Positions 607 through 45,426 of a stretch of DNA of 64,000 nucleotides are shown here, one piece after another. The translations under genes were made by a program, and so were the position numbers. The notes below the pieces were generated by a model, which did no database searches, was not told the origin of the DNA, and was given only the letters and a program-made list of their open reading frames with translations. This stretch comes from Gemmatimonadota bacterium (GTDB lineage: Bacteria; ARS69). The stretch is from NCBI GenBank assembly GCA_030747075.1, contig JASLLL010000009.1, positions 14,148 through 78,147 of the forward strand, given 5' to 3'. Positions within the stretch are counted from its first letter, which is position 1; every line of letters begins with the position of its first letter.

Positions 607-1170
607 ATGAAGCGTTTCGCGGCTCTTTCCGCAACGCTGCTGGTCCTCATTCTGGCAGGCGGCGCGGCAGCCGAGGTCCACGGCTGGACGATCTCGGGCA
701 GAACGGACGATCCCTTCGCCAACACGGGCCCTCCCGCGAACGGAATCGTCTATCTCACCCTCTGGTATGCCTGCCCGTCCGACGGATGGTCGGCAGCGGA
801 GTTCGATCTCAGCGGATCCATGACCGTCCTCGGATTCATTCCGAACAGCGCATTTTCTGTTCTGAACTCGGGGGGCGCCGAGAATCTGTTTCTGGCGGTC
901 GGTGGTTGTCCGAGCGGCCCCATGCCCGCCGGGTCCATCGTGGCGCTGGACTTCGGCGGGACTCTCTGCATCGTGCCGAGTGCGGCGAACGGGCGCAATG
1001 TGACCGTAAACTGCGATCCCACGAATCCGCAGGCGTTCAACAACCTCTACACCGGATACGCCAGCGACGGGTCCACTCCCTGCTACAGCGTGCCGCCTCC
1101 GCATGAGGTGTGTATTCCGGTCTTCGCGGAGGAGTCCCGCTGGGGGACGATCAAGAGCCTGTATCGCTGA
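607..1170 (+). CDS. Secreted protein, tandem paralog of the preceding gene, C-terminal 'WGxIKxLYR' tail family
   Basis: ATG at 607 is preceded by AAGGAGG 6 nt upstream. N-terminal signal peptide MKRFAALSATLLVLILAGGAAAEV. It is a paralog of the 1..467 protein and ends ..SRWGTIKSLYR-stop. Confidence 0.65.
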   Translation: MKRFAALSATLLVLILAGGAAAEVHGWTISGRTDDPFANTGPPANGIVYLTLWYACPSDGWSAAEFDLSGSMTVLGFIPNSAFSVLNSGGAENLFLAVGGCPSGPMPAGSIVALDFGGTLCIVPSAANGRNVTVNCDPTNPQAFNNLYTGYASDGSTPCYSVPPPHEVCIPVFAEESRWGTIKSLYR

Positions 1171-18856: not shown

Positions 18857-21087
18857 TGGATGCGGACGGACTTGACGGAGGCGCGTCGTCCTCCGCCCGT
18901 GATGTTCAGGAAGTAGACTCCCGCGGGAAGCAGGGTGCCGTCGTCTGCGCGTCCGTCCCAGGTCGTGGTCGAAGCGCCTTCCCGGAATGAGGGGGGCACG
19001 AGCGTTCGCACGCATCGCCCCGCGATGTCCATGACGCGCACGGTAAGGCGCGTGCCTTCCGTTCCCGAGAGGCACAGAGTCTGTGTCCGGGAAGCGGGCT
19101 GTGGCCGGATGCCGAGTACGGCCCACGCGGCAGGGCCGCCGGTCAGGGCTTCCACCGCCGTGGACGACCCCGGGTCATCTTCCCGCATCGTGTACAATCC
19201 GGGTGCCACGCCCTTCCAGACAGTCCGGGTTCCGGATGGCCAGTTCACCACGACCGAGTCCGCGCTTTCCGATTCTTCGATGCCGAGCATGACGCGAAGC
19301 GGGTTCATGAAGCCGCGCCACGAGTTCGCGAAGACGCGGCGATGCACCTCGTCATCATCGTGGTAGGCGACGACTTTCGCCCCGACAGCGGCGTGGCCGG
19401 AGAGCGTTCCAATCAGATCAAGCCGGATCGAGACTCCCCCGGCGCGGGCATTTCGGTAGTACCGGACCACTCCGTTTGCGCTGTAGGTCTGGGGTCCCGC
19501 TCCCTCGCTCAAGAACAACTCCGGAAGTCCGTCTCCGGTCAGGTCTCCCCAGACCGCGCCATCGGCCAGTCCGGTGCTTCCTCCGGGAAGGCCTTCGCTT
19601 GCGGTCACATCCGTCAGCGTTCCCCGCTGATTGCGGTAGAGGCGGTCGGGCGCGTTCGGTTGCGCCGAGGTGCCCATGTCCACGACATGGAGGTCAAGAT
19701 CGCCGTCCGCGTCATAATCCACCCAGGTGATGTGTCGCGGATTGACCATGGCTGACAGCCCCAGACTGCTGGTGACCTCCTGGAATGTCCCGCCGTCGTT
19801 GCGCCACACCCGAGGGCTCCCCGGGATGAATCCCGAATCTTCCAGATCGACTCCGGTCGCCTGCAGCGTACTTCCGCCAGCGGTGACCCACCCGTCGAAG
19901 GTGTCGAAGTTGATGTCGGGCGTGGAACAGCGGATCTGCCACGGGCCCGACGCAGACTCCCGCCACACCCAGGTTCCGCGCTCCACGCCCGGCTGGAAGT
20001 CCGGCTGGCCGATGAACTCGGGCGTCAGGAGAATGGTCTCTCCATTGGGGGGGATCAGTTCGTCCGGCCCCAGAAAGATGCGATTGAGGTTCTGGTAGCC
20101 GCGCAGCCGGAACTGAGCGTGCAGCGTGTCGGCCGTCGTGGAGACAGTCAGTCCGTCCAGTCCCAGGTCTCCGTATCGTGTATTGAAGAAGTAGGAGAGC
20201 GTATCCCCGATGGTATAGGCGTCAAACACGCCGACCATGCCATCGCAAACGGCCAGATCCAGGTCTCCGTCGTTGTCGTAGTCTCCCCAGTCGGCTCCGG
20301 AGATTGTGGGAATGGAAGGGGTGAACACCTCCGACGCATCGACAAAGACTCCGCCGTCGTTGCGGTAGAGTCTGGTCGGTCGCGGGAACTCCTCTCCGCC
20401 GACCAGGAGATCCGGGTCTCCGTCGTCGTCGTAGTCTCCCCAGATTCCCCCGACGGTGCCGTCGAACTCCTCCAGTCCGCTCCCGTCCGACACATCCACA
20501 AACGAGAACCCTCCGCGATTCCGAAAGAGAGCGTTGCCGTAATTCTCGGACGGGGCGGCTCCAGTCCACAGGTCCGGAAGACCGTCGCCATCGTAGTCGG
20601 CGGCGGACACGGCCCGGGTCCGCGTGGGCGGGGAGTCCGCGCCTCCCGCGTCGGGAACCGGAGTGAAGGCTCCGTCGCCCTCGTTCACATACAGTTCGTT
20701 GGCCTCCGGGCTGCTTCCTCCGCCCCCTCCGTGGGTGTAGAAGATGTCAGGCAGGGGGCTGCCGTCCAGAGGCAGAGCCACGGCGCCATGCCGGTCCATC
20801 GGGCCGACCCAGGGCAGTGGATGCAAGAGGCGGGAGAAGACGCCAGTACCGTCGTTCCAGTAGAGAATGGGGGAGTAGAAGTGGTGTCCGGCGCAGAGAT
20901 CCAGGTCTCCGTCGAGATCGAGGTCCGAAAGGAAAGCTCCCCAGGTCGGCTGCGTCCAGTTCAGCCCGGACGAAACCGTCTCATCGAAAAAGACGGCCCC
21001 GGCCGGGCAGCCGCCGAGGGCGATCCATAGGGCCGCACCGACGGCCAGGAAGTGTGGAATGATTGAATGACGCAACGGATGCCCCAC
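18853..21087 (-). CDS. FG-GAP/VCBS-repeat protein with T9SS (Por) type-A C-terminal sorting domain
   Basis: Multiple D-x-D-x-D-G-D calcium-loop repeats (DYDGDGLPDL, DLDGDLDL..). The C-terminal ~70 aa (..RLTVRVMDIAGRCVRTL..WDGRADDGTLLPAGVYFLNITGGGRRASVKSVRI) match the T9SS CTD pattern. N-terminal signal/lipobox. Confidence 0.8.
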   Translation of the reverse strand: MGHPLRHSIIPHFLAVGAALWIALGGCPAGAVFFDETVSSGLNWTQPTWGAFLSDLDLDGDLDLCAGHHFYSPILYWNDGTGVFSRLLHPLPWVGPMDRHGAVALPLDGSPLPDIFYTHGGGGGSSPEANELYVNEGDGAFTPVPDAGGADSPPTRTRAVSAADYDGDGLPDLWTGAAPSENYGNALFRNRGGFSFVDVSDGSGLEEFDGTVGGIWGDYDDDGDPDLLVGGEEFPRPTRLYRNDGGVFVDASEVFTPSIPTISGADWGDYDNDGDLDLAVCDGMVGVFDAYTIGDTLSYFFNTRYGDLGLDGLTVSTTADTLHAQFRLRGYQNLNRIFLGPDELIPPNGETILLTPEFIGQPDFQPGVERGTWVWRESASGPWQIRCSTPDINFDTFDGWVTAGGSTLQATGVDLEDSGFIPGSPRVWRNDGGTFQEVTSSLGLSAMVNPRHITWVDYDADGDLDLHVVDMGTSAQPNAPDRLYRNQRGTLTDVTASEGLPGGSTGLADGAVWGDLTGDGLPELFLSEGAGPQTYSANGVVRYYRNARAGGVSIRLDLIGTLSGHAAVGAKVVAYHDDDEVHRRVFANSWRGFMNPLRVMLGIEESESADSVVVNWPSGTRTVWKGVAPGLYTMREDDPGSSTAVEALTGGPAAWAVLGIRPQPASRTQTLCLSGTEGTRLTVRVMDIAGRCVRTLVPPSFREGASTTTWDGRADDGTLLPAGVYFLNITGGGRRASVKSVRIH

Positions 21088-21713: not shown

Positions 21714-21974
21714 CTATCTCCATGCCCAGTGTCCGCGTACCCGGATGCGGCACCCGGGGGCGACGCGCTTCCAGTGTCCCGGAACCCACACCCTGTGATG
21801 GCGCGGGGCTCTCGGTCCGGCGACGACCACGACCCGAGCCGGAGCCGGTCGAGGAGTCCGGATGACAAGCCTCCCCCGAACCCGTGCGGATGCGTCAGTC
21901 GGGGCGGCGAGTCCGGCGGAGAGAAGGGCGGCGGTGAGAAGTGCGGGAGCGATGAGTCCGGACAGCGTCTTCAT
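21714..21974 (-). CDS. Small secreted protein (86 aa) with repeated GHW motifs
   Basis: ATG at 21974 with AAGGAG 7 nt upstream. Signal peptide MKTLSGLIAPALLTAALLSAGLAAP. Basic C-terminus ..HRVWVPGHWKRV..RVRGHWAWR. Confidence 0.5.
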   Translation of the reverse strand: MKTLSGLIAPALLTAALLSAGLAAPTDASARVRGRLVIRTPRPAPARVVVVAGPRAPRHHRVWVPGHWKRVAPGCRIRVRGHWAWR

Positions 21975-22210
21975 GAGGGTCTCCTTATGGCCGAATCTCC
22001 GGCCTGTGTGGGTTGCCCGGCGATACCGCAATGCGTGTGCCAATTGCACGCATTGCGGCGTGATCACCCGCAAGTGTCTGTGTCGACACGGGTTCGGTCC
22101 CAGATGGCTGGCCCGTGCCGCCCTCCTTCCTGACGGACCTCTGCGTACATGTTGGACCCCTGCGGCCATGTCCGGCATGATCGACGACGACTGACTCCGG
22201 AGGATCGCCT

Positions 22211-26572: not shown

Positions 26573-28894
26573 CTACTGGATGTATCCGAGTGCGCGGAGT
26601 TCCTCTCGGATTCTCTCGTCGGCGTCGGTCGCGATTCCTTCCGTCGTTGCGCTGTCCCGGGCGCCGTAGCTCTCCACCATGCGCACCCCGTGTTCCTCAG
26701 CCCAGGCTTCTGTGAAGAGATCGGTCAGCACCACGCCCTCCATGTCGGCGGCAGCTGGCGCGCCCAGGAGGTGGAGGATCGTCGGAGTCAGGTCGACCGC
26801 CCGCGCCCCGCGGACCCACCCGCCCTTTCGAAAGGGAGGCCCCGCCGCCAGCAGGAACCCGTCCATGGCGTGATCGCCGGAGTGCCCGCTCGGGACGATC
26901 GCGCTTCCCGCAGGGAGTCGCCCGTTGCCCAGAGAGAGGGCGGCCCCGGCCAGTCCCCGGTGGAATCGGGCCAGAAGGAATGGCCCGTCCTCATCGCGTC
27001 CTGTCGAGAGTCGGCGGAAAACCGCCCCCCCCGCATCGGTGCGTGCCTTGCTCAGCGTTCGCTTTGCCTCTTCCAGCGCCACTTTCCCGTTCGCGGCGGC
27101 CCTGCCCGGGCGCAACCGTCGCACGGGGTCGGTGAAACGGTCTGCGTTCGGATCGAAGACCCGGCTGGCCCGCTCATCCACGCTCCCCGGTTCTCCCGGC
27201 AGCGAAACAGCCAACCCGGCCGCCGCGAGCAGGTGGTTCATGTGGTAGGCGGTGTCGCGTTCGTTGTTTGCGAGGAATCCGTGATCGGACAGGATGACGA
27301 TGCTGGTGCGCGGATCCACCATCGCGATCACCTCGCCCACGAGTTCATCGGCGAAGTCGTAGTACCGGTCGATGACCGGAGCGAGGGCACGGACTTCGTC
27401 GTCGGCCATGGTGCCGTAGAGCGTTTCGGAGAGCCCCCGCCGCCCGCGTTCCGCCATGCGGTACTTCCAGAAGAGGTGCTGCGTATTGTCGGTGCCGCGG
27501 AAGTAGAGTGCGGTCAGGTCCGGTTGTTCTTCGCGAAGGAGAAGCCGCGCGGACTCCAGCGTGAAGAGATCATGGCGCACCACCCGATCGAGCACATCCA
27601 CGGCACGACGGGTCGGCCCCCATTGCTCGCGCCGGAACACCTCCAGCGAATCGCCGACTTGTGTGAACCTCCCGATGCCGCGCCACGGATGGGTGTCCAG
27701 CGTCTGGCGCACCGAATCCACCGCCGCCGTGAGGTGCGCGGGATACACGCGGTCCGACAGGCCGTCGAAGTCCGCCCGGTCGGAGACAATCGTGCCCGCC
27801 ACCTCCTCCGCAGGCCACGACACATACCAGTTCACGAACGCCACCGTGTAGTCCGCCGGCGCGGCGATGTTCCACAGCGCGGGAACTCGTCGCATCCGGC
27901 CTGACACCGGAATGGCCTCACCATCGCGCCGCGTGACAAAGTCCCGAATGCCGTGCGTGGTCGGGAGCATTCCCGTCACGACCGAGGTCCACACCACGGG
28001 CGACTTCGGCGTGCGGATGGAACGCAGCGGGCCGGTCGTTCCGTCGCGCAGGAGTCGCGCGAAGTTCGGCAGGCGCCCTTCGGCGATGCCCTCGTCGAGG
28101 AGGCCTCGCTCGATTCCGTCGATCGCGAGAATCAGGACGCGCTCGTCGCTGCCCGATCGGGCCGCGCTGGCGACGGTCTCCGCGTCCGGGCGGCGAGGTC
28201 CCGGAAGCGAGGTCGTCGCCATTCCCGCGAGAAGAAGGAGCGCCATGGCGGGCAGGCCGAACGCAAGCGCGCGAAGAACCTGCGGGGGGGCCACGCGACT
28301 CACGCGGGCACTCACCCATGCGACGGCAAACGCCCCGCTCGCCGCCGCAAGAACGATCCACAGTCCGGGTGCCGCGGGCAGACCCCGGTGAAGCCAGAGC
28401 CGTCCGAACGCGGCGGCGTCGATGGCAGCCAGGACGCTCGCGATCGCGGCGGCTCGCGCCAATCCCGCCCGGAGCTTCCCGCGAGCGAGAGTCGCCAGCG
28501 CCGCGCCCGCGGCGGCCCCGACCAGCGCATGCATGGCGACATAGGCAGCGGTACCCATGGCGGCGGTATCCAGATGCGTGAGTGTCGGCTCCGAGAGAAG
28601 AGGACGGAGTCTGCGGAATGCGAAGTTGAGCAGGTCCGCCCATACATGGAGGTCGCGGGATCTCTCGGCCGCGGCGAATACGGCGCCGGCACCGATCCCC
28701 GCGAGGAATCCCTCGATCGCTGCACGCGCTCGGTCGATCTCCCGGGCGGGGAGGCGCGCGTCGCTCAACGGCGCGTCTCGGGATGGGTCGATGCGCGCGT
28801 GTCCGCTCCAGTGCGACCCGCACCCTGAGATTCGCCCGGTTCGGTCAGAAGCAGGCGATGAATCTCCTCCACATCGGGCCGTGGAAGGCCGCAA
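26573..28894 (-). CDS. Membrane-anchored type I phosphodiesterase / nucleotide pyrophosphatase (AlkP superfamily) protein, paralog of 35533..37539
   Basis: N-terminal multi-TM region followed by an AlkP-core motif (LILAIDGI..TPKSPVVWTSVVTGMLPTTHGI). The start is uncertain; the annotated 5' end overlaps the next gene by ~130 nt. Confidence 0.7.
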   Translation of the reverse strand: MRPSTARCGGDSSPASDRTGRISGCGSHWSGHARIDPSRDAPLSDARLPAREIDRARAAIEGFLAGIGAGAVFAAAERSRDLHVWADLLNFAFRRLRPLLSEPTLTHLDTAAMGTAAYVAMHALVGAAAGAALATLARGKLRAGLARAAAIASVLAAIDAAAFGRLWLHRGLPAAPGLWIVLAAASGAFAVAWVSARVSRVAPPQVLRALAFGLPAMALLLLAGMATTSLPGPRRPDAETVASAARSGSDERVLILAIDGIERGLLDEGIAEGRLPNFARLLRDGTTGPLRSIRTPKSPVVWTSVVTGMLPTTHGIRDFVTRRDGEAIPVSGRMRRVPALWNIAAPADYTVAFVNWYVSWPAEEVAGTIVSDRADFDGLSDRVYPAHLTAAVDSVRQTLDTHPWRGIGRFTQVGDSLEVFRREQWGPTRRAVDVLDRVVRHDLFTLESARLLLREEQPDLTALYFRGTDNTQHLFWKYRMAERGRRGLSETLYGTMADDEVRALAPVIDRYYDFADELVGEVIAMVDPRTSIVILSDHGFLANNERDTAYHMNHLLAAAGLAVSLPGEPGSVDERASRVFDPNADRFTDPVRRLRPGRAAANGKVALEEAKRTLSKARTDAGGAVFRRLSTGRDEDGPFLLARFHRGLAGAALSLGNGRLPAGSAIVPSGHSGDHAMDGFLLAAGPPFRKGGWVRGARAVDLTPTILHLLGAPAAADMEGVVLTDLFTEAWAEEHGVRMVESYGARDSATTEGIATDADERIREELRALGYIQ

Positions 28895-30700: not shown

Positions 30701-33700
30701 ATGGCCGGTACCGATCCTCTGGAGATCCGGGCACTCTCTGATGTTCTCCACGCTTCCGGCGAAACCTATCTGAAAGACGGGGATTATACGCGCGCGGCGG
30801 AGTTCTTCCGCAAGAGCCTGGACATTCGTGAGCGGATCGGCGAACCGCGCCTGACCGCGGATACGCTTGCGGACCTCGGGCGCGTTCTCATGCTGCTCGG
30901 AGAGATGGAAGAGGCGGCGGAGCGCGTCCGGAGCGCGCTGAAGCATCGGGAGGACGCCGGGGACTCCGCCGGGGTGGCCGACTGTCACGATATCCTGGGG
31001 AACATCGCCCGGGGGCAGGGGCGACCCGACGAAGCGGAGTCGCACTACGGCCGGGCGCTTGCGTTCAAGCAGGAAGCCGGGGACGAGCGCGGGATGGCCA
31101 CGACCCTCGCGCTGTACGGGATTCTCCACAACGAACGCGGGGATTATCCGGCGGCTGAAGAGCGCTATCAGGCGGCGCTCGCCATCTTCGATCGTGTCGG
31201 GGATCGGGAACAGGTGGCGTCTCTCACCAACAACCTCGGCAATCTCTACCTGCGCAAGGGAGATCCTGGCGCCGCAGCCACGGAACTGGAGAAGGCGCGG
31301 GACCTGTTCGAGGAACTCGGCGACCCGCGCGGCGTCGGCAAGTGCCTGAACAACCTTGCGGCCATCTACCGCGCCTTGGGCAAGGACAGCCCGGCGGCGG
31401 ATTCCTACCGGAAGGCGCTGGGCCTTTTCGAGGAGATCGGCGACAAGCGCGGCGCTGCGATCTCGGCGAACAATCTCGCCGTGATCGAGCAGGACTTCGG
31501 GCGATATCGGGAGGCGTCCGAGTACCACGAGCGGAGTCTGGAACTGAAGCGGGAGATGGGGGATCGCACGGGTGAAGCCGTGTCGCTGGGGAATCTCGCG
31601 GACATTGCCTTCTTCCGTGGGGAGTGGGAGCGGGCGGACCGCCTGCACCGGCAGGCCCTGGCGATTCAGGAAGAGGTAGGCAATCGAACGGGGGAGGCCC
31701 GGCTCAGGAACCGTCGCGCCCGATTGCGACTGGTGCGCGGGGGGCGCGAGGCCGCCGCCCGGGAAGCGGCGACGGCGCGCCGACTGGGGCGCGAAGTTCA
31801 GTCGCGCGAGATCCAGGCGGAGGCGCTGCTCATCGAGGTCCGCCTTGCATCGGCAGCGGGCGACACCGGCGGGGCTCGCCGTCTTCTGGAGGAGGCCGAG
31901 GAACTCGGCCGGGCCATGCGCAGCCGGGAGACGGAGGCCGCCATCCGCGTGGCGCGCGGGGAGGTTCTGGCGTCGGAGGGAGAGGAAGAGGCGGCTTCCA
32001 CCATCTTCGACGAAGCCTCCCGGGCCTACAAACGGCTGCGGCGCTCCTTCGATCTGGCGGGGGTGGAGCTGGCGCGCGGCGTCTCGCTGGCGCGGTTCGG
32101 GCGGGGGGATCGGTGCATCGAACCGTTCGCCCGGGCCGAGGAGATCCTGGACGGCATGGGTTCCTCGGCGCACATGCTCGCGCCGTTGAGGCAGGCGCTG
32201 GAGATTCTCGCGAAGGAGCACCCCGGCGAGGGGGTGGAACTGGCGGAGATGGGGACCCGACTCGCCCATCGCCTGGGGGACTCGGATGCTGCCCGGGACT
32301 TTCAGGAGGCGCTCCAGACGCGTGAGAGTGGCGGCGGCGAGAACCCGGCGGAGCATCGGCTGGCGGTTCTCTCGGAGGTGACCCGACACCTTCAGGAGAC
32401 CCGGCAGGCCGAAGGCGTCGCGGGCTGGATTCTGGAGCGTGTGGTAGAGGAGGTCCGTGCGGATCGCGGCCTGCTGCTGTTGCAGGAACTGGCGGGCGAC
32501 GGGTTTCAGGCGGCGGCGGTCCTTCGGCTGGAGGATCCCGCGTTGACGGATGCGGTCCGCGCTGCGGAGAGGGCCGGGGAGTCGGGGGAGACGATCCGGG
32601 ACTTCCAGGGCGGAGGGAGCGCGGGGAGCAGATCGAGACTTGTCGTGCCCTTCGGGGTGCGGGGGGAGGAGGGCGTGGCGGGCGTCATGCATCTGGAGGC
32701 GTCGGTCGGTGCGCGCGGGTTCTCTCTGGCGGATGCGCGCTTTGTGAGCAGTTGTCTGGCCGCCTACGCGCTCTTTCTGCGGGGCGGATCCCCCCGGGAG
32801 TCCCGGGATCGCGTGGCGGTGGGGTCGGGAAACACCCCGGCGGCCTTCTCGACGATCGTGGGAGATTCGAAGCGCATCCGCGAAGTATTCCACGCGGCCA
32901 CGCGGGTCGCGGCCGGGAACGCCACCGTGCTCATTCTCGGAGAGAGCGGGACCGGGAAGGAGCTTCTGGCGCGGGGGATTCACGACTCCTCTCCGCGCAC
33001 GGCGGAGCCCTTTGTGGCGGTCAACTGCCCGTCGATCCCGCGGGACCTGCTGGAGAGCGAGCTTTTCGGGTACGAGAAGGGCGCATTCACCGGCGCCGAC
33101 TCCCCCAAGGCAGGCAGGCTGGAACTGGCCGACGGAGGGACGCTCTTCCTGGACGAGGTGGCGGACCTGTCGCCGCCCGCCCAGGCGAAAATCCTGCGCG
33201 TGCTTCAGGAGCGCACCTTTGAGCGACTCGGCGGGCTGGAGACGAAGGCGGTGGATGTTCGCATCCTCGCGGCCACCTCCACCGACCTGGCCGAAGCTGT
33301 CCGAGATCGGCGCTTCCGGGAAGATCTCTACTACCGGATCAATGTGGTTCCGCTCGTACTCCCCGCACTCCGCGATCGAAAGGAGGACATCCCCGCGCTG
33401 GTGGACCACTTCCTCGCGAAGTACGCGCGGCCCGAGCGGCCCGTCCGCTTCGTCACGCCGGAGGCACTCCGTCGACTGACCGTCTACCCGTGGCCCGGGA
33501 ACATTCGGGAGTTGGAGAACGCCATTCAGTACGCGGTGAGCCTCATGGACGGAGAGACCCTGGCACCGGGAGATCTCCCCCGGACCGTTCGGTCCCACGG
33601 CGGCGGCGATCTCCGGGGGATCGGGAGCCTCCGTTCGGAACTCGAACGCGTCGAGAAGGAGATCATTCTGGAGATTCTGGAAGAGACCGGATGGAACCGG

Positions 33701-33850
33701 AGCGAGGCCGCCCGCCGTCTGGGAACTCACGAGAGCAAGATCCGTCAACGCATCCGCAAGTATGGCCTGTCTTCCCCGAAGAAGAGCGAAGAATCCGCTC
33801 GCGGAACACGCTCAGACGACCAAGGATTCGTCGATTCTGACGAACACTGA
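30701..33850 (+). CDS. Sigma-54-dependent transcriptional activator with N-terminal TPR repeats and GAF-like sensor domain
   Basis: About 10 TPR-like repeats (..LGNLYLRKGD.., ..LNNLAAIYRALGK..) and a central GAF-like region. AAA+ sigma-54 interaction domain (VLILGESGTGKELLARGIH; ESELFGYEKGAFTGA; GAFTGA). C-terminal Fis-type HTH. Confidence 0.85.
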   Translation: MAGTDPLEIRALSDVLHASGETYLKDGDYTRAAEFFRKSLDIRERIGEPRLTADTLADLGRVLMLLGEMEEAAERVRSALKHREDAGDSAGVADCHDILGNIARGQGRPDEAESHYGRALAFKQEAGDERGMATTLALYGILHNERGDYPAAEERYQAALAIFDRVGDREQVASLTNNLGNLYLRKGDPGAAATELEKARDLFEELGDPRGVGKCLNNLAAIYRALGKDSPAADSYRKALGLFEEIGDKRGAAISANNLAVIEQDFGRYREASEYHERSLELKREMGDRTGEAVSLGNLADIAFFRGEWERADRLHRQALAIQEEVGNRTGEARLRNRRARLRLVRGGREAAAREAATARRLGREVQSREIQAEALLIEVRLASAAGDTGGARRLLEEAEELGRAMRSRETEAAIRVARGEVLASEGEEEAASTIFDEASRAYKRLRRSFDLAGVELARGVSLARFGRGDRCIEPFARAEEILDGMGSSAHMLAPLRQALEILAKEHPGEGVELAEMGTRLAHRLGDSDAARDFQEALQTRESGGGENPAEHRLAVLSEVTRHLQETRQAEGVAGWILERVVEEVRADRGLLLLQELAGDGFQAAAVLRLEDPALTDAVRAAERAGESGETIRDFQGGGSAGSRSRLVVPFGVRGEEGVAGVMHLEASVGARGFSLADARFVSSCLAAYALFLRGGSPRESRDRVAVGSGNTPAAFSTIVGDSKRIREVFHAATRVAAGNATVLILGESGTGKELLARGIHDSSPRTAEPFVAVNCPSIPRDLLESELFGYEKGAFTGADSPKAGRLELADGGTLFLDEVADLSPPAQAKILRVLQERTFERLGGLETKAVDVRILAATSTDLAEAVRDRRFREDLYYRINVVPLVLPALRDRKEDIPALVDHFLAKYARPERPVRFVTPEALRRLTVYPWPGNIRELENAIQYAVSLMDGETLAPGDLPRTVRSHGGGDLRGIGSLRSELERVEKEIILEILEETGWNRSEAARRLGTHESKIRQRIRKYGLSSPKKSEESARGTRSDDQGFVDSDEH

Positions 33851-33863
33851 TCCTGTGCGAAAT

Positions 33864-33989
33864 CAAGGACTTACGGCCCGATTTCGACAAACTCGCGGAT
33901 TTCGACGAACTCCGTCCGATCGGCGAGGTTTCCTGCGGGAATTGTCGCAGAATTGAGGCGCCGGAACAGACGCCGGGCCAAGGACTTAC
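33864..33989 (+). repeat. Intergenic direct repeats: 2x CAAGGACTTAC (33864-33874, 33979-33989) and tandem 2x GATTTCGAC[A/G]AACTC (33880-33894, 33898-33912)
   Basis: Read directly in the sequence. They lie between the activator gene and the sigma-54 promoter, roughly -160 to -40 from the -24 element. Confidence 0.5.
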
Positions 33990-34025
33990 AGAGACACTCG
34001 CGAAAATCGCCGAACCTGCGAAAGT

Positions 34026-34041
34026 TGGCATCCGGATTGCA
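34026..34041 (+). promoter_or_regulatory. Sigma-54 (RpoN) -24/-12 promoter TGGCAT-N5-TTGCA
   Basis: TGGCATCCGGATTGCA matches the TGGCAC-N5-TTGCW consensus with exact GG/GC spacing. It lies 55-70 nt upstream of the next ORF start and immediately downstream of a sigma-54 activator gene. Confidence 0.55.
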
Positions 34042-34096
34042 GTAGTCCCTCCCCGTACGCCGGGAACGAGTCCCGGCGGTGGAGAGGAAAGCCGAG

Positions 34097-34405
34097 ATGC
34101 AAACTCCAGGAAACACACCCCGAGAGCGAATCACACAGGCTCCGGAGAGCCGAGGAAATCATGGGCGGCACCCATTCCTCGCTACGCTCTCCGTTCTGGC
34201 CCTGGTGATCGCTCTGGGGATCCTGGGGGGTTCGAGCCGGGTCACTCCGGTCGCGGCGGAAGCGAATGCCCCGTCCCGAACTCTTCGCGGAGACACCTCC
34301 ATTCTCCACCGCCAGGACGCTGTTTCCGGCGGAGACCGGTATGAGCGACCCGCATGCCCCGTTCCGTCTCGCGTCGCGGGGAGCGTGCGGGTTCGTATTC
34401 CGTAA
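34097..34405 (+). CDS. Small hypothetical membrane protein (about 103 aa)
   Basis: ATG at 34097 with GGAGAGG upstream (alternative GTG at 34079). One predicted TM helix (FLATLSVLALVIALGILGG). It stops 1 codon before the next gene region. Small-ORF call, moderate support only. Confidence 0.35.
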   Translation: MQTPGNTPRERITQAPESRGNHGRHPFLATLSVLALVIALGILGGSSRVTPVAAEANAPSRTLRGDTSILHRQDAVSGGDRYERPACPVPSRVAGSVRVRIP

Positions 34406-34495
34406 GTGTTCGAGAGGAGAGCAATCCGCCTCTCAAATGCGGTAGAATGGTGGCAGTGTTACCCCCCTTCGATGCGGGACAGGAGGACTTTCGAA

Positions 34496-35506
34496 ATGCA
34501 ACTCAAAATGCGCTCACACTTTGCGTCGGCGACTCGGATCGCGTCGCTTCTTCTGCTTGCGGGTTCTCTTGCGCTCCCGGCAGAGGCCGCGGTGATGATC
34601 AATGAGTTCGAACGCGCGTCGGGTTCGGACTATGTGGAGCTCTACAACGACGGGACGGTCTCGGTGGATCTCTCCGGTTGGACACTGGAGAGCAAGCTGG
34701 GCGTGGTCATTCCTCTGTCCGGTGTCATTTCCGGAGGCGGATACACCACGCACAGCACATCCAATGTCGTGCTCGACGGGGGGGAGATCGAACTTTACGA
34801 CGGCAGTTACCTCAAGCGTGACGAAGTCGCTTTCGGATCCGCCGGGGGGGCGCCCGCCGTACCGCCGATCGGTTCATACTCCTGCGGTCGCGCCCCGAAC
34901 GGTACAGACACCGGGAACGACGCCGCCGACTGGAACCTGGCGACCAGCAACTCACTCGGTTTTGCAAATACGCACCCGGTCGCGAATCTGAACGGCTGGG
35001 TGGCCATGAACGAAGTGGGCTTCCAGAGGTTCCGCTCCTCCGCGGGGTGTGAACTCGGAGCGACCGTGGTGGAACTGTTCAACTCCACCGGAACCTATGT
35101 GGATCTCTACGGGTGGTGGGTGACCAACGGCCGCAAGGTGACCGTTCTCTTCGGGATGATTGCCCCGAACGGATTTGCCGTATTCAATGACCTTGCCACG
35201 GGGTTCTGCTTTGACGAGACCGAAGTGATCTATCTCTTCGGACCCACCGGTCGACGCTTCGATCAGTTCGGTACGAAAGGCGCCCGGCTCCCCGACGAGA
35301 GCTTTACCTTCCAGCGTGTTCCGGACGGCACGGGCGGACAGGGTCCCTTCGACGGGTTCGACTATGTATCGAGCGGCGGGTCGAGGGTGCTGTTCATGCT
35401 CCCGCAAACCTGGAACGACACGAACGATCAGGCCACGCCGATGGCGGCGGACGACCCCGCGATCGAGGCCGGAAGCTGGGGGAGGGTCAAGGCCCTCTAC
35501 CGCTAG
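34496..35506 (+). CDS. Secreted protein with two lamin-tail domains (LTD) and C-terminal 'WGxVKxLYR' tail
   Basis: ATG at 34496 with AGGAGG 9 nt upstream. Signal peptide ..IASLLLLAGSLALPAEAAV. LTD signatures (INEFE..YVELYNDG..VDLSGWTL and MNEVGF..VVELFN..VDLYGWWV). Ends ..GSWGRVKALYR-stop. Confidence 0.75.
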   Translation: MQLKMRSHFASATRIASLLLLAGSLALPAEAAVMINEFERASGSDYVELYNDGTVSVDLSGWTLESKLGVVIPLSGVISGGGYTTHSTSNVVLDGGEIELYDGSYLKRDEVAFGSAGGAPAVPPIGSYSCGRAPNGTDTGNDAADWNLATSNSLGFANTHPVANLNGWVAMNEVGFQRFRSSAGCELGATVVELFNSTGTYVDLYGWWVTNGRKVTVLFGMIAPNGFAVFNDLATGFCFDETEVIYLFGPTGRRFDQFGTKGARLPDESFTFQRVPDGTGGQGPFDGFDYVSSGGSRVLFMLPQTWNDTNDQATPMAADDPAIEAGSWGRVKALYR

Positions 35507-35532: not shown

Positions 35533-37539
35533 CTAAGGTGTGGCGGGTTCGTAGGTTGCGACGACGCCCGGGATTCTGTGGCGCAGCGCTTCTTCCAGCG
35601 ACTCCTGAATCACATCGCCGGCGAGGTCCGCAGCGAGATCCATCTCATTCAGGGCCAGCATGGTGGGCATGAGGTCGAGCAGGTCCGCGTTCTCGAAGTG
35701 GGTGCCCGGAGCGACGCGTCTTCCGCTGAGCACGAGCGCGCCCGTTTCCACCGTGCGGGAACTCTCCTGGAACTCCATGGAGCGAACGAGGTCATCCAGC
35801 GGACACCGGCCGCCCTGGAACAGGACGACATCTTCGCTTCCCGGCACGACATCCGGGTGGATCGTGACGACCATATTTCCCCACTCATCCAGACGCGTGA
35901 CGAACGGCTGAATGTCCGCACGCGCCAGTCGAGCCGTCTGGAAAAGGCGGCGCACGCCGTCCAGGTCCGGTTCGTGGCCATCCCTCATCCGCACATAAGT
36001 GCGCAGCCCGAGGTTGGTTGCTTCCACCGCGTTCTTGAGGCGCATCTCCCGCAAGAGCGGCTCCGGCCGGAGCGTCAGGTTCCGGTGGGAGTCCCCGGGG
36101 ACCGCTTCGGCGCCATGATCCGACACGACGACGACCAGCTCGTCCTCCGCCGCATCGGCGAGGATCTTGCCGATGAACGCATCCGCGAGGCGGTAGGCGT
36201 CGTGTACGCTGCCGCCGTAGCGCTCGATGTCCTCCCGGGAGACATCTCCGAAGGAGTCGGGTTCGTGGTACTTCCAGAAGTGCGACTGGGCCACATGGAT
36301 GATGTTCGTGTGATAGGCGGCGAAGTCCGGTTCAAACTTCCGGCGAAGCTCCACGAAGAAGTCCGAGTTCAGCTTCGCCCGGAGCTTTCGCTTCGTGAAG
36401 ATCTGCGCCGAGTTCAGCGTTCGCCCGTGGAGGGGGTCGGAGAGAATTTCACCCGCGGCTTCGGAGAGCGTACCGAGCCGCACCCCGTAGCGGATCCCGA
36501 GAAATGCGTACCGGCAGTACCTTCCCCAGGTGCGTCTTCGGCGGGTCTTCTCGTTCATGGCGAGTTCGCGGATGAAGCCCAGCCGGGGCGGCCAGGTGTC
36601 CGGGCCGGGGTCGGATACGGAGGGAACCACGAAGCCGTCCGTGGCGGTCGGCGGCCATGTGACAGGCCATCCGAAGATGCCCACCGACCATGCGCGTTCG
36701 GCGAAGATGTCCCAGATCCGCCGCGTCTGTACATCCTGAGTCGTGGATGCGGCCACGCCGAGGATCCCGTGCTCCCTGGCGGGCCTGCCGGTCGCGACGG
36801 AGGTCCAGACGGCGGAGGTGGTGTAGGGCTGAACGGAGTGGACATCTCCCCAGGCGCCTCCCCGGCGGAGCACTTCGAGGTTCGGCATCTCCCCTCGCTC
36901 GATCAGTTCCTCCGCGACGGTCCACGACATTCCCGGGAAGGCCAGTATCAGCGCCCGCGAACCCGGTGCCAGCCCACGGCCGGAGGGGGTTGCTCCCGCG
37001 AGAATCGCCACCACGGGCAGCGCCGCAAGAAGGGGCCAGACCCAGATTCTGCGGTGAGCGCAGACATAGCGCGCGGTGATGGAGGCTAGCCATCCGAGCC
37101 CCATGGCGATCAGGGGTCCGACGCCGTAACGCAGCATCTCCGACGAATGGAAAAGGCTGAGGAGCGGCGGAAGGAAGGGGAGCGTCGCGGCGAAGACTGC
37201 GATCCCGGCCACCGACGCCCAGAGGAGTTCATACGCGCGAGGGACATCTTCGCTGGAGCCGATTCCGGCGAGCCAGCGGAGGATCCGGCCGAGCACAAGC
37301 CCCAACACCCCCCCCCCGAGGACGGGGAGCACCAGGTAGAAGGTCACGCCCAGGCCCGCCCGGTCCACAAAGCGTGGATTCAGTGCGAACGCTACCGTCG
37401 CGACGATGGAGATCCAGAAGAGGGAAACGGCCACACCGGTCCGCGGCCCGGAGGAGAGAAGTCCTCGCGGGTCGGGAGGCGTGTGCCGTCTGGGGGTCGA
37501 TGGCCTCGTGGTCATACTTCCCGAATCGGATGGATCCAC
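35533..37539 (-). CDS. Membrane-anchored type I phosphodiesterase / nucleotide pyrophosphatase (AlkP superfamily) protein, paralog of 26573..28894
   Basis: N-terminal multi-TM region followed by the AlkP core (LILAFPGMSW..TTSAVWTSVATGRPAREHGI). Same architecture as the other paralog. Confidence 0.7.
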   Translation of the reverse strand: MDPSDSGSMTTRPSTPRRHTPPDPRGLLSSGPRTGVAVSLFWISIVATVAFALNPRFVDRAGLGVTFYLVLPVLGGGVLGLVLGRILRWLAGIGSSEDVPRAYELLWASVAGIAVFAATLPFLPPLLSLFHSSEMLRYGVGPLIAMGLGWLASITARYVCAHRRIWVWPLLAALPVVAILAGATPSGRGLAPGSRALILAFPGMSWTVAEELIERGEMPNLEVLRRGGAWGDVHSVQPYTTSAVWTSVATGRPAREHGILGVAASTTQDVQTRRIWDIFAERAWSVGIFGWPVTWPPTATDGFVVPSVSDPGPDTWPPRLGFIRELAMNEKTRRRRTWGRYCRYAFLGIRYGVRLGTLSEAAGEILSDPLHGRTLNSAQIFTKRKLRAKLNSDFFVELRRKFEPDFAAYHTNIIHVAQSHFWKYHEPDSFGDVSREDIERYGGSVHDAYRLADAFIGKILADAAEDELVVVVSDHGAEAVPGDSHRNLTLRPEPLLREMRLKNAVEATNLGLRTYVRMRDGHEPDLDGVRRLFQTARLARADIQPFVTRLDEWGNMVVTIHPDVVPGSEDVVLFQGGRCPLDDLVRSMEFQESSRTVETGALVLSGRRVAPGTHFENADLLDLMPTMLALNEMDLAADLAGDVIQESLEEALRHRIPGVVATYEPATP

Positions 37540-44467: not shown

Positions 44468-44728
44468 ATGACGACACAACTCTGGCTGCTCGCGGGAGCG
44501 ATCCTCGTGGTCAATCTTCCCTTCGGATACTGGCGCGCCGCGTGCCGGAGGCGGAGTGCGGCCTGGTTTCTGGCGATCCACATTCCCGTTCTCCTTGTGA
44601 TCGGGATGCGCGCGCTCCTCGGCGTATCGCTCCACTACACGACCCTTCCCGTGACCGTGGGAGCGTTTGCCGCCGGGCAGTTTCTCGGCAGCCGTCTTCG
44701 CGGGCGCGGCTCCCCGCCTCAGCGGTAG
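44468..44728 (+). CDS. Small membrane protein (86 aa, 3 predicted TM)
   Basis: ATG at 44468 with GGGGAGAGGG upstream. Hydrophobic segments. Unknown function. Confidence 0.4.
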   Translation: MTTQLWLLAGAILVVNLPFGYWRAACRRRSAAWFLAIHIPVLLVIGMRALLGVSLHYTTLPVTVGAFAAGQFLGSRLRGRGSPPQR

Positions 44729-45426
44729 AGCGACTTGACCTGTCCCCAGGAACCCGGGGGGCAGCAGTCTTCCGGCGCGGAGACATCCGGCGACTCCAGC
44801 GCCCCGGTGTCGATCCACTCGCGAATCACATCGATCACCGGCTGACTCAAGGGCTGTGCGCCGCGAGGCATCCGCGAACCGACCATCCCCTGACAGAACT
44901 CCAGCTTGCAGATGAGGTAGCTGTTGTCCGCGGAGAACGGCTCGACCCGCAGCCACGAGGGAGCCTGCGAACTCCCGATGCCCACGAGCGAAGCCCAGGA
45001 GTTGCCGTCGCGAAGATCCAGTGAGGCCTGGGCCGCGCTTCCATGACAGAAGGAGGCGGCGCAACCCGGCGTGAAGACATTCGCCTGGATGGCGGGCAAC
45101 TCGGGAGGAAAGAACTCCCCGCGGGAAGGCGGGGCTTTGGCATGGGGTTCCGCCCCGGGTTGGGCGGCAGGACCGGCGGACGCGGCGACGGGCAGCAGAG
45201 CGACGAACGCGAGGATGGCGAGGATCACGAGGCGCACGCGTCTCTTCCCGGGTTGGGCGTTTCGGACTCTCCGGAGTCGATCTTCGGGAGCGGGGATAGC
45301 AGAGATACGGGACTTTACCCCCGGAGCGTAGCTTACTCCGTGGCCGGAAGCCAGCCGTTGGGGAGAGGCCCGGGAACGGGGCTTTCCGTCGCGTTGACGC
45401 ACTTCCGGGAGCAAGCTAGCCTGCAC
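44719..45426 (-). CDS. Secreted planctomycete-cytochrome-like (PSCyt-type) domain protein with C-terminal 'WGxVKxLYR' tail
   Basis: Signal peptide ..RLVILAILAFVALLPVAASA (true start probably an internal GTG near 45250). CAASFCHG..SWLRV..GSRMP..LSQPVIDVIREWIDTGA matches the PSCyt pattern from memory. Ends ..GSWGQVKSLYR-stop. Confidence 0.6.
   Translation of the reverse strand: MQASLLPEVRQRDGKPRSRASPQRLASGHGVSYAPGVKSRISAIPAPEDRLRRVRNAQPGKRRVRLVILAILAFVALLPVAASAGPAAQPGAEPHAKAPPSRGEFFPPELPAIQANVFTPGCAASFCHGSAAQASLDLRDGNSWASLVGIGSSQAPSWLRVEPFSADNSYLICKLEFCQGMVGSRMPRGAQPLSQPVIDVIREWIDTGALESPDVSAPEDCCPPGSWGQVKSLYR

What the first reader, a model, noticed from the sequence alone, without database searches (positions are those of the whole stretch)
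34496..35506. Dual lamin-tail-domain secreted protein carrying the LYR tail, apparently under sigma-54 control
Two LTD modules (INEFE..VELYNDG..VDLSGWTL, repeated as MNEVGF..VVELFN..VDLYGWWV) precede the conserved tail. Bacterial LTD proteins are typically surface or extracellular.

The gene follows a small membrane ORF and a perfect sigma-54 promoter, next to a sigma-54 activator. This suggests signal-dependent expression of a surface protein of this tail family.
Basis: partly seen in the sequence, partly recalled or inferred. Interest (0 to 1): 0.5.

Follow-up and report, generated by a model that had tools for sequence, protein, structure and literature searches.

The report
Sigma-54-controlled secreted double-LTD tail protein
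This gene encodes an exported protein made of two lamin-tail (Ig-like) modules, sits in a conserved sigma-54-driven two-gene unit beside its activator, and ends in a short tag that looks like an undescribed protein-sorting signal shared by several little-studied bacterial phyla.

Summary
Gene 34496..35506(+) encodes a 336-aa protein with four parts: a Sec signal peptide, LTD1, a diverged LTD2, and a linker ending in SWGRVKALYR.

The sigma-54 promoter TGGCATCCGGATTGCA (34026-34041) is the only exact match in the window. It recurs at the same position in every syntenic orthologous locus that reaches that far. There it always lies downstream of a TPR-AAA+(GAFTGA)-HTH activator gene and upstream of a conserved ~100-aa membrane ORF followed by the LTD gene.

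The most interesting part is the tail. These came from Eisenbacteria, Krumholzibacteriota, Latescibacterota, Fibrobacteraceae and Gemmatimonadota MAGs. The motif PxVExx[ST]WGx[IV]KxLYR is almost always the very C-terminus of unrelated, signal-peptide-bearing proteins.

Homologues of this same double-LTD passenger carry a T9SS type-A domain or an IPTL-CTERM domain in place of the tail. This "choice of anchor" pattern argues that the tail is a sorting or anchoring signal. No NCBIfam or Pfam model and no searchable paper describes it.

The ligand is unknown. Larger relatives fuse the didomain to EEP nucleases/phosphatases, and two phosphodiesterase genes flank the locus, which hints at extracellular nucleic-acid or phosphoester binding.

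The parts
30701..33850 (+). Sigma-54 enhancer-binding activator, 1049 aa: N-terminal TPR/MalT-like repeats, AAA+ domain with GAFTGA, Fis-type HTH
   Evidence: Pfam Sigma54_activat E=4.1e-68, TPR_12 E=1.6e-51, AAA_lid_14 and HTH_8. GAFTGA and GESGTGKE are visible in the translation. The same gene lies immediately upstream in L125-127, L128 and L131, and partly in L001, L004, L129 and L133.
33821..34015 (+). Four copies of a ~25-nt motif (core TCG-N-CGAAAATCG-N-CGA); candidate activator binding sites (UAS)
   Evidence: the repeat finder family D1 at 33821, 33868, 33886 and 33991. The proximal and distal blocks are conserved in the orthologous intergenic regions. Two of the five window matches to the motif with at most 3 mismatches fall here. 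That the activator binds here is inferred.
34026..34041 (+). Sigma-54 promoter, -24 GG / -12 GC (TGGCATCCGGATTGCA); predicted TSS about 34052
   Evidence: Only exact match in the window, 0.05 expected. An equivalent site lies 419-452 nt upstream of the LTD ATG in L001, L003, L004, L128, L129/130 and L133/134. The background rate of such sites is 0.007 per kb.
34058..34078 (+). 5'-UTR hairpin (8-bp stem) just upstream of the RBS GGAGAGGA
   Evidence: Perfect inverted repeat I6. RNA fold -19.8 kcal/mol, z=-2.5. The block CCGGG...CCCGG is conserved in 6 loci.
34097..34405 (+). Small conserved ORF (102 aa): basic N-terminus, one hydrophobic helix, conserved periplasmic-side motif ERPACPVPSRV; no known family
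   Evidence: Protein alignment of 5 orthologs, 38-46% identity, with invariant RG..GR..LA and RPA.P.PSRV.G. Called as a 100-110-aa gene in L001, L003, L004, L128, L129 and L133. No Pfam hit.
34438..34448 (+). Conserved TGCGGTAGAAT element (-10-like) between the small ORF and the LTD gene; role unknown
   Evidence: T, G, G, TA and AAT are invariant across 7 loci although the flanks are diverged and the small-ORF reading frame differs. The scan found no -35 and no sigma-70-type promoter.
34496..34588 (+). Sec-type signal peptide of the LTD protein (aa 1-31, AEA|A)
   Evidence: Read directly from the sequence. Present in all orthologs.
34589..34993 (+). LTD module 1 (aa ~32-166)
   Evidence: Pfam LTD at 38 bits alone. 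AF2 pLDDT 85-95. Foldseek match to the lamin Ig-fold, probability 1.0.
34994..35431 (+). LTD module 2 (aa ~167-312), diverged
   Evidence: Pfam LTD at 19.6 bits alone, below the cut-off. Homologous to module 1: hhalign probability 98.8%, E=7.7e-17 and BLASTP E=4e-7. AF2 gives a beta-sandwich with pLDDT 83-95 for aa 190-260.
35432..35503 (+). Linker plus C-terminal tag (...DDPAIEAGSWGRVKALYR-COOH); the core W328-R336 is encoded at 35477..35503
   Evidence: The tail is conserved in all 15 aligned orthologs, with W and the terminal R invariant and G, K and Y at 90% or more. Family logo. Strictly C-terminal. Selection acts on the peptide, not the DNA.
35533..37539 (-). Convergent neighbour: membrane-anchored type I phosphodiesterase/nucleotide pyrophosphatase-family protein (context)
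   Evidence: Pfam Phosphodiest E=1.1e-21. In the same position in L001, L002, L128, L129 and L133. A second copy lies at 26573..28894(-).
604..1170 (+). Another tail-bearing secreted protein (ends RWGTIKSLYR). Its paralog at 3..467(+) ends NWGAIKGLYR.
   Evidence: No Pfam or NCBIfam hit.
44719..45195 (-). Another tail-bearing secreted protein (ends SWGQVKSLYR)
   Evidence: No Pfam hit.

Best explanation
The gene encodes a non-catalytic, Sec-exported protein built from two homologous lamin-tail (Ig-like beta-sandwich) modules. It is the second gene of a conserved two-gene unit, small membrane protein followed by double-LTD protein.

Proposed regulation. The unit is transcribed from a sigma-54 promoter. 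That promoter is switched on by the TPR-AAA+-HTH enhancer-binding protein encoded immediately upstream, which probably binds the repeated TCGxCGAAATCGxCGA sites.

Proposed sorting. After export, the strictly C-terminal tag (P-x-V/I-E-x-x-S/T-W-G-x-I/V-K-x-L-Y-R-COOH) directs the protein to its final place in or on the outer envelope. It does the job that a T9SS type-A domain or an IPTL-CTERM domain does for homologous double-LTD passengers in other organisms.

Proposed activity. At that location the LTD pair acts as a binding module. The best guess for the ligand is extracellular nucleic acid or another phosphoester polymer, working alongside the flanking envelope phosphodiesterases.

Shown in silico: domain composition, signal peptide, conservation of the promoter, activator and operon, and the tail's distribution, positional constraint and interchangeability with known sorting domains.

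Inferred: sigma-54 dependence in vivo, the sorting function and its machinery, the final localisation, and the ligand.
For: Domains.
- Pfam LTD hits.
- Internal duplication.
- AF2 model and lamin-fold matches.

Operon and regulation.
- The sigma-54 site is unique in the window.
- It is conserved at the same relative position in all 7 syntenic orthologous loci that cover the region, against a background of 0.007 sites per kb.
- A GAFTGA-bearing activator lies directly upstream in every locus with enough sequence.
- The small ORF is conserved as a protein.
- No convincing terminator lies between the two genes.

Tail as a sorting tag.
- 99 of 109 complete tail ORFs have an N-terminal hydrophobic stretch after a Met, consistent with a signal peptide (simple hydropathy test).
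- The passengers are unrelated and mostly lack any Pfam domain.
- With a relaxed motif, 150 matches are exactly terminal, 8 lie within 2 residues of the stop, 1 lies 7 residues from it, and none is internal.
- Synonymous codons and all three stop codons vary freely, and the DNA after the stop is not conserved.

Choice of anchor.
- The same didomain (profile positions ~18-311) occurs with the tail in at least 40 cluster representatives.
- It occurs with a T9SS type-A domain: TIGR04183 at 24.7 bits against a cut-off of 23, and FlgD_ig.
- It occurs with IPTL-CTERM: TIGR04174 at 35.4 bits against a cut-off of 20.5.

Ligand hint.
- Four of the nine large relatives tested fuse the didomain to EEP nuclease/phosphatase domains.
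- Two Phosphodiest genes flank the locus in all syntenic loci.
- The literature links bacterial LTDs to membrane-associated phosphoesterases, and ExeM loses activity without its LTD (PMC6085458).
Against: - There are no expression or localisation data, and the organism is an uncultured MAG.
- The sigma-54 promoter precedes the small ORF, not the LTD gene. A conserved -10-like element directly upstream of the LTD gene may give sigma-54-independent transcription.
- The divergent orthologs L131/L132 have no sigma-54 site and no small ORF.
- Sigma-54 sites are not a general feature of tail genes: 2 of 109, against 0.3 expected.
- No candidate sorting machinery recurs next to tail genes.
- The tail region has low AF2 confidence.
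- LTD2 alone is below Pfam's cut-off.
- The LTD of ExeM is dispensable for DNA degradation in vivo, so a DNA-binding role is weakly founded.
- The adjacent phosphodiesterase gene is convergent, so it is not co-transcribed.
Confidence: 0.6

Rival explanations
1. The tail is a minimal T9SS signal, not the tag of a separate pathway. It would mimic the last strand of the local T9SS C-terminal domains and be handled by the same PorV/Sov/PorU-type machinery.
For: - The tail occurs in FCB-group phyla, which possess T9SS.
- The same genomes are rich in FlgD_ig/type-A domain proteins. These appear in 33 of about 120 loci and at window 18853..21087(-).
- Local type-A domains end ...R-K-phi-V-L-L-R/K, which resembles ...K-A-L-Y-R.
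- In P. gingivalis Hbp35 the last 22 residues suffice for secretion, and 43-55-aa 'short CTDs' exist (PMC11969387).
Against: - The conserved tag is only about 10-17 residues and has no motif B or motif D (GxY).
- hhalign of the tail profile against the local type-A domain profile gives probability 0.3%.
- Neither TIGR04183 nor FlgD_ig hits tail proteins.
- AF2 tentatively predicts a helix, not a strand.
Confidence: 0.25
2. The tail is not a sorting signal. It would instead be a C-terminal interaction or turnover motif, for example a PDZ/protease-recognition degron, an oligomerisation helix, or a short amphipathic membrane-binding helix that acts in the periplasm.
For: - The strict requirement for the free C-terminus is typical of PDZ or tail-specific-protease recognition.
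- W/I/L/Y spacing of i, i+3, i+6, i+7 fits an amphipathic helix (read from the sequence; low-confidence AF2 helix).
- No dedicated machinery was found nearby.
Against: - The same passenger alternates between the tail and two recognised sorting domains. That pattern is the signature of sorting signals.
- The upstream P-V-P-V-E linker and a frequent Cys look like a processing or attachment region.
- The tag sits on dozens of unrelated exported proteins per lineage, often in tandem arrays.
Confidence: 0.2
3. The sigma-54 promoter controls only the small membrane ORF. The LTD gene would be expressed mainly from its own promoter at the conserved TGCGGTAGAAT element, so the LTD protein would be essentially sigma-54 independent.
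For: - The -10-like element is invariant in 7 loci, 36-47 nt upstream of the ATG.
- In L131/L132 the LTD gene lacks any sigma-54 site.
Against: - There is no recognisable -35 and no hit from the sigma-70-type scan.
- Terminator-like sites are not enriched between the genes: 3 found against 1.5±1.2 in shuffles.
- The gap between the genes is short (46-90 nt) and the gene order is fixed in all syntenic loci.
- Pairing of the activator gene with the LTD gene persists even where the small ORF is absent.
Confidence: 0.25

Closest known systems
ExeM/Xds-type extracellular nucleases (LTD + OB-fold + EEP domain + GlyGly-CTERM)
   Same: - An N-terminal signal peptide is followed directly by an LTD; NF033680 gives a weak local match to residues 19-64.
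- Both are exported proteins that carry a C-terminal sorting tag (PMC6085458).
- Larger relatives of this didomain do carry EEP domains.
   Different: - No catalytic domain is present here.
- There are two LTDs and nothing else.
- The tag is a short non-transmembrane peptide, not GlyGly-CTERM.
- The match scores 22 bits against a family cut-off of 1300, so this protein is not a member.
T9SS type-A cargo (TIGR04183 / FlgD_ig-like C-terminal domain)
   Same: - Both have a Sec signal peptide plus a C-terminal signal on diverse passengers.
- Both occur in the same phyla and the same genomes.
- Homologous double-LTD passengers carry this domain instead of the tail.
- Both end in hydrophobic residues followed by a basic residue.
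   Different: - The type-A domain is a 43-90-aa beta-sandwich or sheet with motifs B, D and E (PMC11969387).
- The tail is about 10-17 aa and is not detected by the HMMs or by profile comparison.
IPTL-CTERM / PEP-CTERM / GlyGly-CTERM class of C-terminal sorting domains
   Same: - These are modular C-terminal tags on exported proteins.
- One homologue, P0024, carries IPTL-CTERM in exactly the position of the tail.
- The IPTL signature ...PTLSEWG.I resembles ...P.VE..[ST]WG.I. This resemblance is a lead only.
   Different: [quoted passage not shown]
- The tail has no hydrophobic helix.
- TIGR04174 does not hit tail proteins.
NtrC-family bEBP / sigma-54 promoter units
   Same: - GG-N10-GC promoter.
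- AAA+ activator with GAFTGA and a Fis-type HTH.
- Upstream repeated sites.
- The activator is encoded next to its target.
   Different: - The sensor part is a long TPR/MalT-like region with no receiver domain.
- One candidate binding site abuts the -24 element (about -45), which is unusually close.
- The target is a secreted LTD protein.
Outer-membrane-protein beta-signal (C-terminal aromatic motif)
   Same: Both are conserved motifs at the extreme C-terminus of Sec-exported proteins, with an aromatic residue near the end.
   Different: - The terminal residue here is an invariant Arg, not Phe/Trp/Tyr.
- The passengers are soluble Ig-like or other domains, not beta-barrels.

Membership tests
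Lamin tail domain (Pfam PF00932) | Profile-HMM match above the curated gathering score | tested here: met
   Whole protein 56.7 bits against 34.3. Module 1 alone scores 38 bits. Module 2 alone scores 19.6 bits, below the cut-off, but it is homologous to module 1 (hhalign 98.8%, E=7.7e-17).
Lamin tail domain (Pfam PF00932) | Ig-like beta-sandwich fold resembling the lamin globular tail | tested here: met
   The AF2 model (pLDDT 73, pTM 0.73) matches lamin B2 2lll, lamin B1 3jt0 (TM 0.61, rmsd 3.4) and lamin A/C with probability 0.95-1.0.
Sigma-54-dependent promoter with cognate bEBP | -24 GG / -12 GC elements with exact spacing matching TGGCAC-N5-TTGCW | tested here: met
   TGGCATCCGGATTGCA is unique in the window and conserved in the orthologous loci.
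Sigma-54-dependent promoter with cognate bEBP | AAA+ activator with a GAFTGA loop and a DNA-binding HTH | tested here: met
   Sigma54_activat E=4e-68 and HTH_8 E=2.9e-11. GAFTGA is present in the translation.
Sigma-54-dependent promoter with cognate bEBP | Transcription start about 12 nt downstream of the GC element, dependent on RpoN and the activator | not testable with these tools
   Needs 5'-RACE, RNA-seq or a reporter assay.
T9SS type-A cargo | C-terminal domain matching TIGR04183/Por_Secre_tail or FlgD_ig, with motifs B, D and E | tested here: not met
   No such hit for this protein or for the three other window tail proteins or P0019, and no FlgD_ig or Por_Secre_tail family among the Pfam hits of the 112 tail proteins scanned. 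The tail-versus-domain profile comparison gives probability 0.3%. Only about 24 residues follow LTD2.
IPTL-CTERM / PEP-CTERM-type sorting domains | [quoted passage not shown] | tested here: not met
   There is no hydrophobic stretch after the motif (read from the sequence). No TIGR04174 hit, although the same scan detects it in homologue P0024 at 35.4 bits.
ExeM-type extracellular exonuclease (NF033680) | Full-length match including the OB-fold and EEP nuclease domains | tested here: not met
   22.2 bits against a cut-off of 1300. The match covers only residues 19-64, i.e. the signal peptide and the start of the LTD.
WGx[IV]KxLYR C-terminal tag family (defined here) | Sec signal peptide plus the [ST]-W-G-x-x-K-x-x-Y/F-R motif at the extreme C-terminus | tested here: met
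   The protein ends SWGRVKALYR-stop. Family logo and positional constraint. Orthologs keep W, G, K, Y and R.

The most novel reading that the evidence does not exclude
The C-terminal peptide P-x-V-E-x-x-[ST]-W-G-x-[IV]-K-x-L-Y-R-COOH would be the recognition signal of a so-far undescribed protein sorting or surface-attachment pathway. The pathway would be shared by Eisenbacteria, Krumholzibacteriota, Latescibacterota, Fibrobacterota and Gemmatimonadota-labelled lineages, and would be distinct from T9SS and from the exosortase/rhombosortase-type systems. This sigma-54-controlled double-LTD protein would be one of its regulated cargoes.
Probability: 0.35. Interest if true: 0.75.

Novelty: new variant of a known kind. 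Interest (0 to 1): 0.5.

Why it matters
The gene itself is a modest addition: a stand-alone double-LTD exoprotein with a cleanly conserved sigma-54/activator unit in an uncultured marine lineage.

The tail gives it wider value.
- It marks dozens of exported proteins per genome across several poorly known phyla.
- It is not covered by current annotation models, so these proteins are labelled 'hypothetical' or named only by their passenger domain.
- It alternates with T9SS and IPTL-CTERM signals on the same passenger.

If it is a sorting signal, two things follow. It would define the surface proteome of these phyla from sequence alone. It would also point to a missing piece of secretion or attachment machinery that phylogenetic profiling could find.

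The conserved activator, promoter and cargo unit also offers a compact system for testing sigma-54 control heterologously.

Tried and rejected
- **NCBIfam scans.** Four window tail proteins and P0019 gave no model for the tail. The same library does detect the 27-aa IPTL-CTERM in P0024, so short length alone does not explain the miss.
- **Literature.** A full-text search for motif spellings such as WGxIKxLYR and KxLYR found nothing relevant. 'Eisenbacteria + C-terminal + secretion' also found nothing relevant.
- **PDB sequence searches.** Neither a consensus tail peptide nor the family profile gave any hit.
- **Neighbourhood clustering.** All ORFs in about 120 tail loci were clustered to look for a recurrent sorting enzyme. 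The only large recurrent family was T9SS-domain proteins. The others (ABC ATPase, peptidases, sulfatase, bEBPs, ECF sigma factor) each recur in 7 loci or fewer.
- **Sigma-54 as a regulon-wide feature of tail genes.** Rejected: 2 of 109 tail genes have a site.
- **First AF2 run.** With 5 sequences it was too poor to use (pLDDT 49). It was repeated with 15 sequences.
- **Foldseek against PDB.** It gave only generic Ig-like and lamin-fold matches and no functional lead.
- **Sigma-54 site inside the activator gene of L131.** The GGCAC...TTGCG there has the wrong spacing.
- **Tat export of the small ORF.** Four of five orthologs have GRRxFLA, but the window copy has GRHPFLA. Tat export is therefore not assumed.
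- **Chance or DNA-level repeat origin of the tail.** Rejected on synonymous-site variation.
Full report
**1. What is at the coordinates**

The ORF 34496..35506(+) starts at an ATG 9 nt after AGGAGG and ends at TAG. Its 336-aa product is identical to a database protein that NCBI names 'MAG: lamin tail domain-containing protein [Gemmatimonadota bacterium]'. It is found on marine metagenome contigs.

The N-terminus (MQLKMRSHFASATRIASLLLLAGSLALPAEA|AV) is a textbook Sec signal peptide.

The evidence for two LTD modules is as follows.
- Pfam LTD matches the whole protein at E=3.7e-15, 56.7 bits against a cut-off of 34.3, in two stretches.
- Scanned separately, the first module scores 38 bits. The second scores 19.6 bits, below the cut-off.
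- The two halves are clearly homologous. BLASTP gives E=4e-7. A profile-profile comparison of the ortholog alignments gives probability 98.8%, E=7.7e-17 over 119 columns. It runs from the 'xNE' start to the 'T(F/W)GxxN' end of each module.
- An AF2 model built on 15 orthologs (pLDDT 73, pTM 0.73) has two confident beta-sandwiches. These match the Ig-folds of lamins B1, B2 and A/C with probability about 1.0.

The last 60 residues, including the tail, are modelled with low confidence.

**2. The regulatory unit**

TGGCATCCGGATTGCA at 34026-34041 is the only exact match to TGGCAY-N5-TTGCW in 64 kb, where 0.05 are expected.

Sixteen orthologs (34-49% identity) were recovered. Their contigs show the same gene order:
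- Phosphodiest(-)
- a 222-240-aa ORF(-)
- M42 peptidase(-)
- TPR-sigma-54 activator(+)
- ORF of ~100-110 aa(+)
- double-LTD gene(+)
- Phosphodiest(-)
- S49 peptidase(-)
- Thioredoxin_10(-)

In L001, L003, L004, L128, L129/130 and L133/134 a sigma-54 site with at most one mismatch lies 419-452 nt upstream of the LTD ATG. That places it about 55-70 nt upstream of the small ORF. In about 1.7 Mb of unrelated loci such sites occur at 0.007 per kb, so this conservation is not chance.

Alignment of the intergenic regions shows islands of identity at five places:
- the -24/-12 elements;
- a near-palindromic block TCGTCGAAATCGACGA abutting -24;
- a second related block about 140 nt upstream;
- a hairpin in the 5'-UTR (window 34058-34078; -19.8 kcal/mol, z=-2.5);
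- the RBS GGAGAGGA.

In the window the block occurs four times between 33821 and 34015.

The activator (30701..33850) has TPR/MalT-like repeats, a Sigma54_activat AAA+ domain (E=4e-68) with GAFTGA and Walker A, an AAA lid and a Fis-type HTH. It has no receiver domain, so it is probably a one-component sensor.

The small ORF (34097..34405) is conserved as a protein. It has a basic N-terminus, one hydrophobic helix and an invariant RPA.P.PSRV.G motif, but no known family.

Three caveats apply.
- Nothing resembling a strong terminator separates it from the LTD gene, so co-transcription is the simplest reading.
- An 11-nt element TG(C/A)G(G/C)TA(C/G)AAT is invariant 36-47 nt upstream of the LTD ATG in seven loci. 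It is conserved even where it falls inside or outside the small ORF in different frames. It looks like a -10 box without a -35 and may provide a second promoter.
- In the most divergent orthologs (35% identity, L131/L132) the small ORF and the sigma-54 site are absent. There the LTD start codon overlaps the activator's stop codon (ATGA). The pairing of activator gene and LTD gene is thus older and tighter than the promoter arrangement seen in the window.

**3. The tail**

Four window ORFs end in xWGx[IV]KxLYR-stop. All four are exported-looking, and they fall into three unrelated protein families.

A degenerate DNA pattern for WGx[IV]KxLYR-stop was scanned against one genome per GTDB species.

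Among the 80 rows listed, the record titles were:

| Lineage in record title | Loci |
|---|---|
| Candidatus Eisenbacteria | about 22 |
| Fibrobacteraceae / Fibrobacter | 7 |
| Krumholzibacteri- | 5 |
| Latescibacter- | 5 |
| Gemmatimonadota | 2 |
| Unclassified 'bacterium' MAGs | many |

The 129 tail ORFs extracted give a longer logo. It reads Cys at -18 to -20, P(-17), V/T(-16), P(-15), V/T(-14), E(-13), x, x, T/S(-10, 89%), then W-G-x-I/V-K-A/S-L-Y-R. The positions upstream of W were not part of the search pattern.

Further properties of the family:
- 99 of 109 complete ORFs have an N-terminal hydrophobic stretch after a Met, consistent with a signal peptide (simple hydropathy test).
- Most are 180-350 aa.
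- About three quarters have no Pfam domain. The rest carry LTD (5), beta-helix, CHRD, propellers, CBMs and others.
- They often occur in tandem arrays, for example four in L030.
- With a relaxed motif that does not require a stop codon, 150 matches are exactly C-terminal. A further 8 lie within two residues of the stop, 1 lies seven residues from it, and none is internal.
- Synonymous positions, Ser codon families and all three stop codons vary freely, and there is no DNA conservation after the stop. Selection therefore acts on a peptide with a free C-terminus.

The LTD orthologs keep a family-specific variant, [ST]WGxTKAxYR. W and the terminal R are invariant, and G, K and Y are at 90% or more.

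**4. Evidence that the tail is a sorting-type signal**

An exhaustive HMM search with the ortholog profile found 310 cluster representatives at E<=1e-30. In these the two LTDs align as one unit (profile positions ~18-311).

| Form of the relative | C-terminal end |
|---|---|
| Stand-alone, 320-350 aa (at least 40 representatives) | Tail or a close variant |
| 390-420 aa | FlgD_ig / T9SS type-A domain (P0023: TIGR04183 at 24.7 bits against 23; ends ...GVYFVRL...IVRTR) |
| P0024 and P0015 | TM helix plus basic cluster after a ...PTLSEW.. / ...PTMSEWG.. signature; TIGR04174 (IPTL-CTERM) scored only for P0024, 35.4 bits against 20.5 |
| Large multidomain proteins | Didomain fused to EEP nuclease/phosphatase, DUF11, PKD or Big_5 domains |

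One passenger alternating among different C-terminal sorting domains is the 'choice-of-anchor' pattern used to recognise sorting signals. That reasoning draws on my own knowledge of how the NCBIfam 'choice-of-anchor' families were defined. It makes a sorting or anchoring role the best-supported reading of the tail.

The tail is not any of the known signals.
- It has no transmembrane helix, which excludes the PEP-, IPTL- and GlyGly-CTERM types.
- It gets no hit from the T9SS models.
- It shows no profile similarity to the type-A domains of the same genomes (probability 0.3%).

Two resemblances remain as leads only.
- The local type-A domains end K-phi-V-L-L-R/K, and the tail ends K-A-L-Y-R. Very short T9SS signals have precedent (PMC11969387).
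- The IPTL signature PTLSEWG.I echoes P.VE..[ST]WG.I.

No neighbouring gene family recurs that could be the machinery. I found no description of the motif in NCBIfam, Pfam, PDB sequences or the searchable literature. That is absence of evidence within these resources, not proof of novelty.

**5. Likely function**

- **Shown:** an exported two-LTD protein without a catalytic domain.
- **Inferred:** it acts as a binding or scaffolding module in the outer envelope.

Published work describes bacterial LTDs as accompanying membrane-associated phosphoesterases. It also reports that ExeM lacking its LTD degrades DNA more slowly in vitro but almost normally in vivo (PMC6085458). Another study treats the LTD as a putative DNA-binding add-on of secreted DNases (PMC4486849).

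Here the didomain's larger relatives are often EEP nucleases/phosphatases (4 of the 9 tested). In addition, two membrane-anchored Phosphodiest-family genes flank the locus in every syntenic contig.

I therefore favour binding of extracellular nucleic acid or another phosphoester polymer, induced on a signal sensed by the TPR activator. Confidence in this ligand is low, about 0.25. The phosphodiesterase next door is convergent, and it is absent from the L131-type loci.

**6. Verdict**

The gene is a new member of known kinds: an LTD exoprotein and a sigma-54/bEBP unit. The C-terminal tag appears to be an undescribed variant of C-terminal sorting signals. It is widespread in several candidate phyla, and this is what lifts the finding above routine.

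Interest is 0.5. If the tag defines a new sorting pathway (probability about 0.35), interest would be about 0.75.

Noticed in passing
window 22042..22027 (-) and about 21977..21714 (-): A second sigma-54-like site, TGGCACACGCATTGCG (one mismatch to the consensus), lies about 50 nt upstream of a small ORF. That ORF begins MKTLSGLIAPALLTAALLSAGLAAPTDASA, which is signal-peptide-like, and encodes an Arg-rich product of about 87 aa.
   Followed up: partly
window 34438..34448: TGCGGTAGAAT is invariant (TG.G.TA.AAT) 36-47 nt upstream of the LTD start in 7 orthologous loci, independent of the small ORF's reading frame. It may be an internal -10 box or an RNA-level signal.
   Followed up: partly
window 34058..34078: A conserved GC-rich hairpin sits in the predicted 5'-UTR of the sigma-54 transcript, immediately before the RBS. 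Covariation was not analysed.
   Followed up: partly
window 3..467 (+), 604..1170 (+), 44719..45195 (-): Three further exported ORFs carry the same C-terminal tag. Two are tandem paralogs. The third contains an FTPGCAASFCHG motif. None has a Pfam or NCBIfam hit.
   Followed up: partly
window 18853..21087 (-): An FG-GAP/ASPIC protein with a C-terminal FlgD_ig domain, which is the T9SS-type domain. The same genome therefore uses both kinds of C-terminal signal.
   Followed up: no
L131 7990..8010; L132: In the most divergent orthologs the LTD gene's ATG overlaps the activator's TGA (ATGA). There is no small ORF, no sigma-54 site and no adjacent phosphodiesterase, and the tail variant is RWGTIRLLFR.
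   Followed up: partly
L030 63..3405; L115 4205..7584; L020, L031, L059, L081, L089, L093: Tail-bearing genes often form tandem arrays of paralogs, up to four in a row.
   Followed up: no
P0024 and P0015 C-termini: The IPTL-CTERM signature on homologous passengers (VPTLSEWAMILL..., TPTMSEWGLIVL...) shares a P-x-x-S/E-x-W-G-x-I core with the short tail. This may hint at an evolutionary link, with the transmembrane helix lost.
   Followed up: no
window 26573..28894 (-) and 35533..37539 (-): Two paralogous Phosphodiest (NPP/alkaline-phosphatase superfamily) proteins with long hydrophobic N-termini bracket the activator/LTD unit in all syntenic loci.
   Followed up: partly
L036, L056, L023 (C-termini): Some homologues of tail proteins carry decayed or extended versions...TWGQIKHIYRAR...TWGRIKSLYAPKK and ...TWSHIKAGFSSE. 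These may be useful natural variants for defining which residues matter.
   Followed up: no
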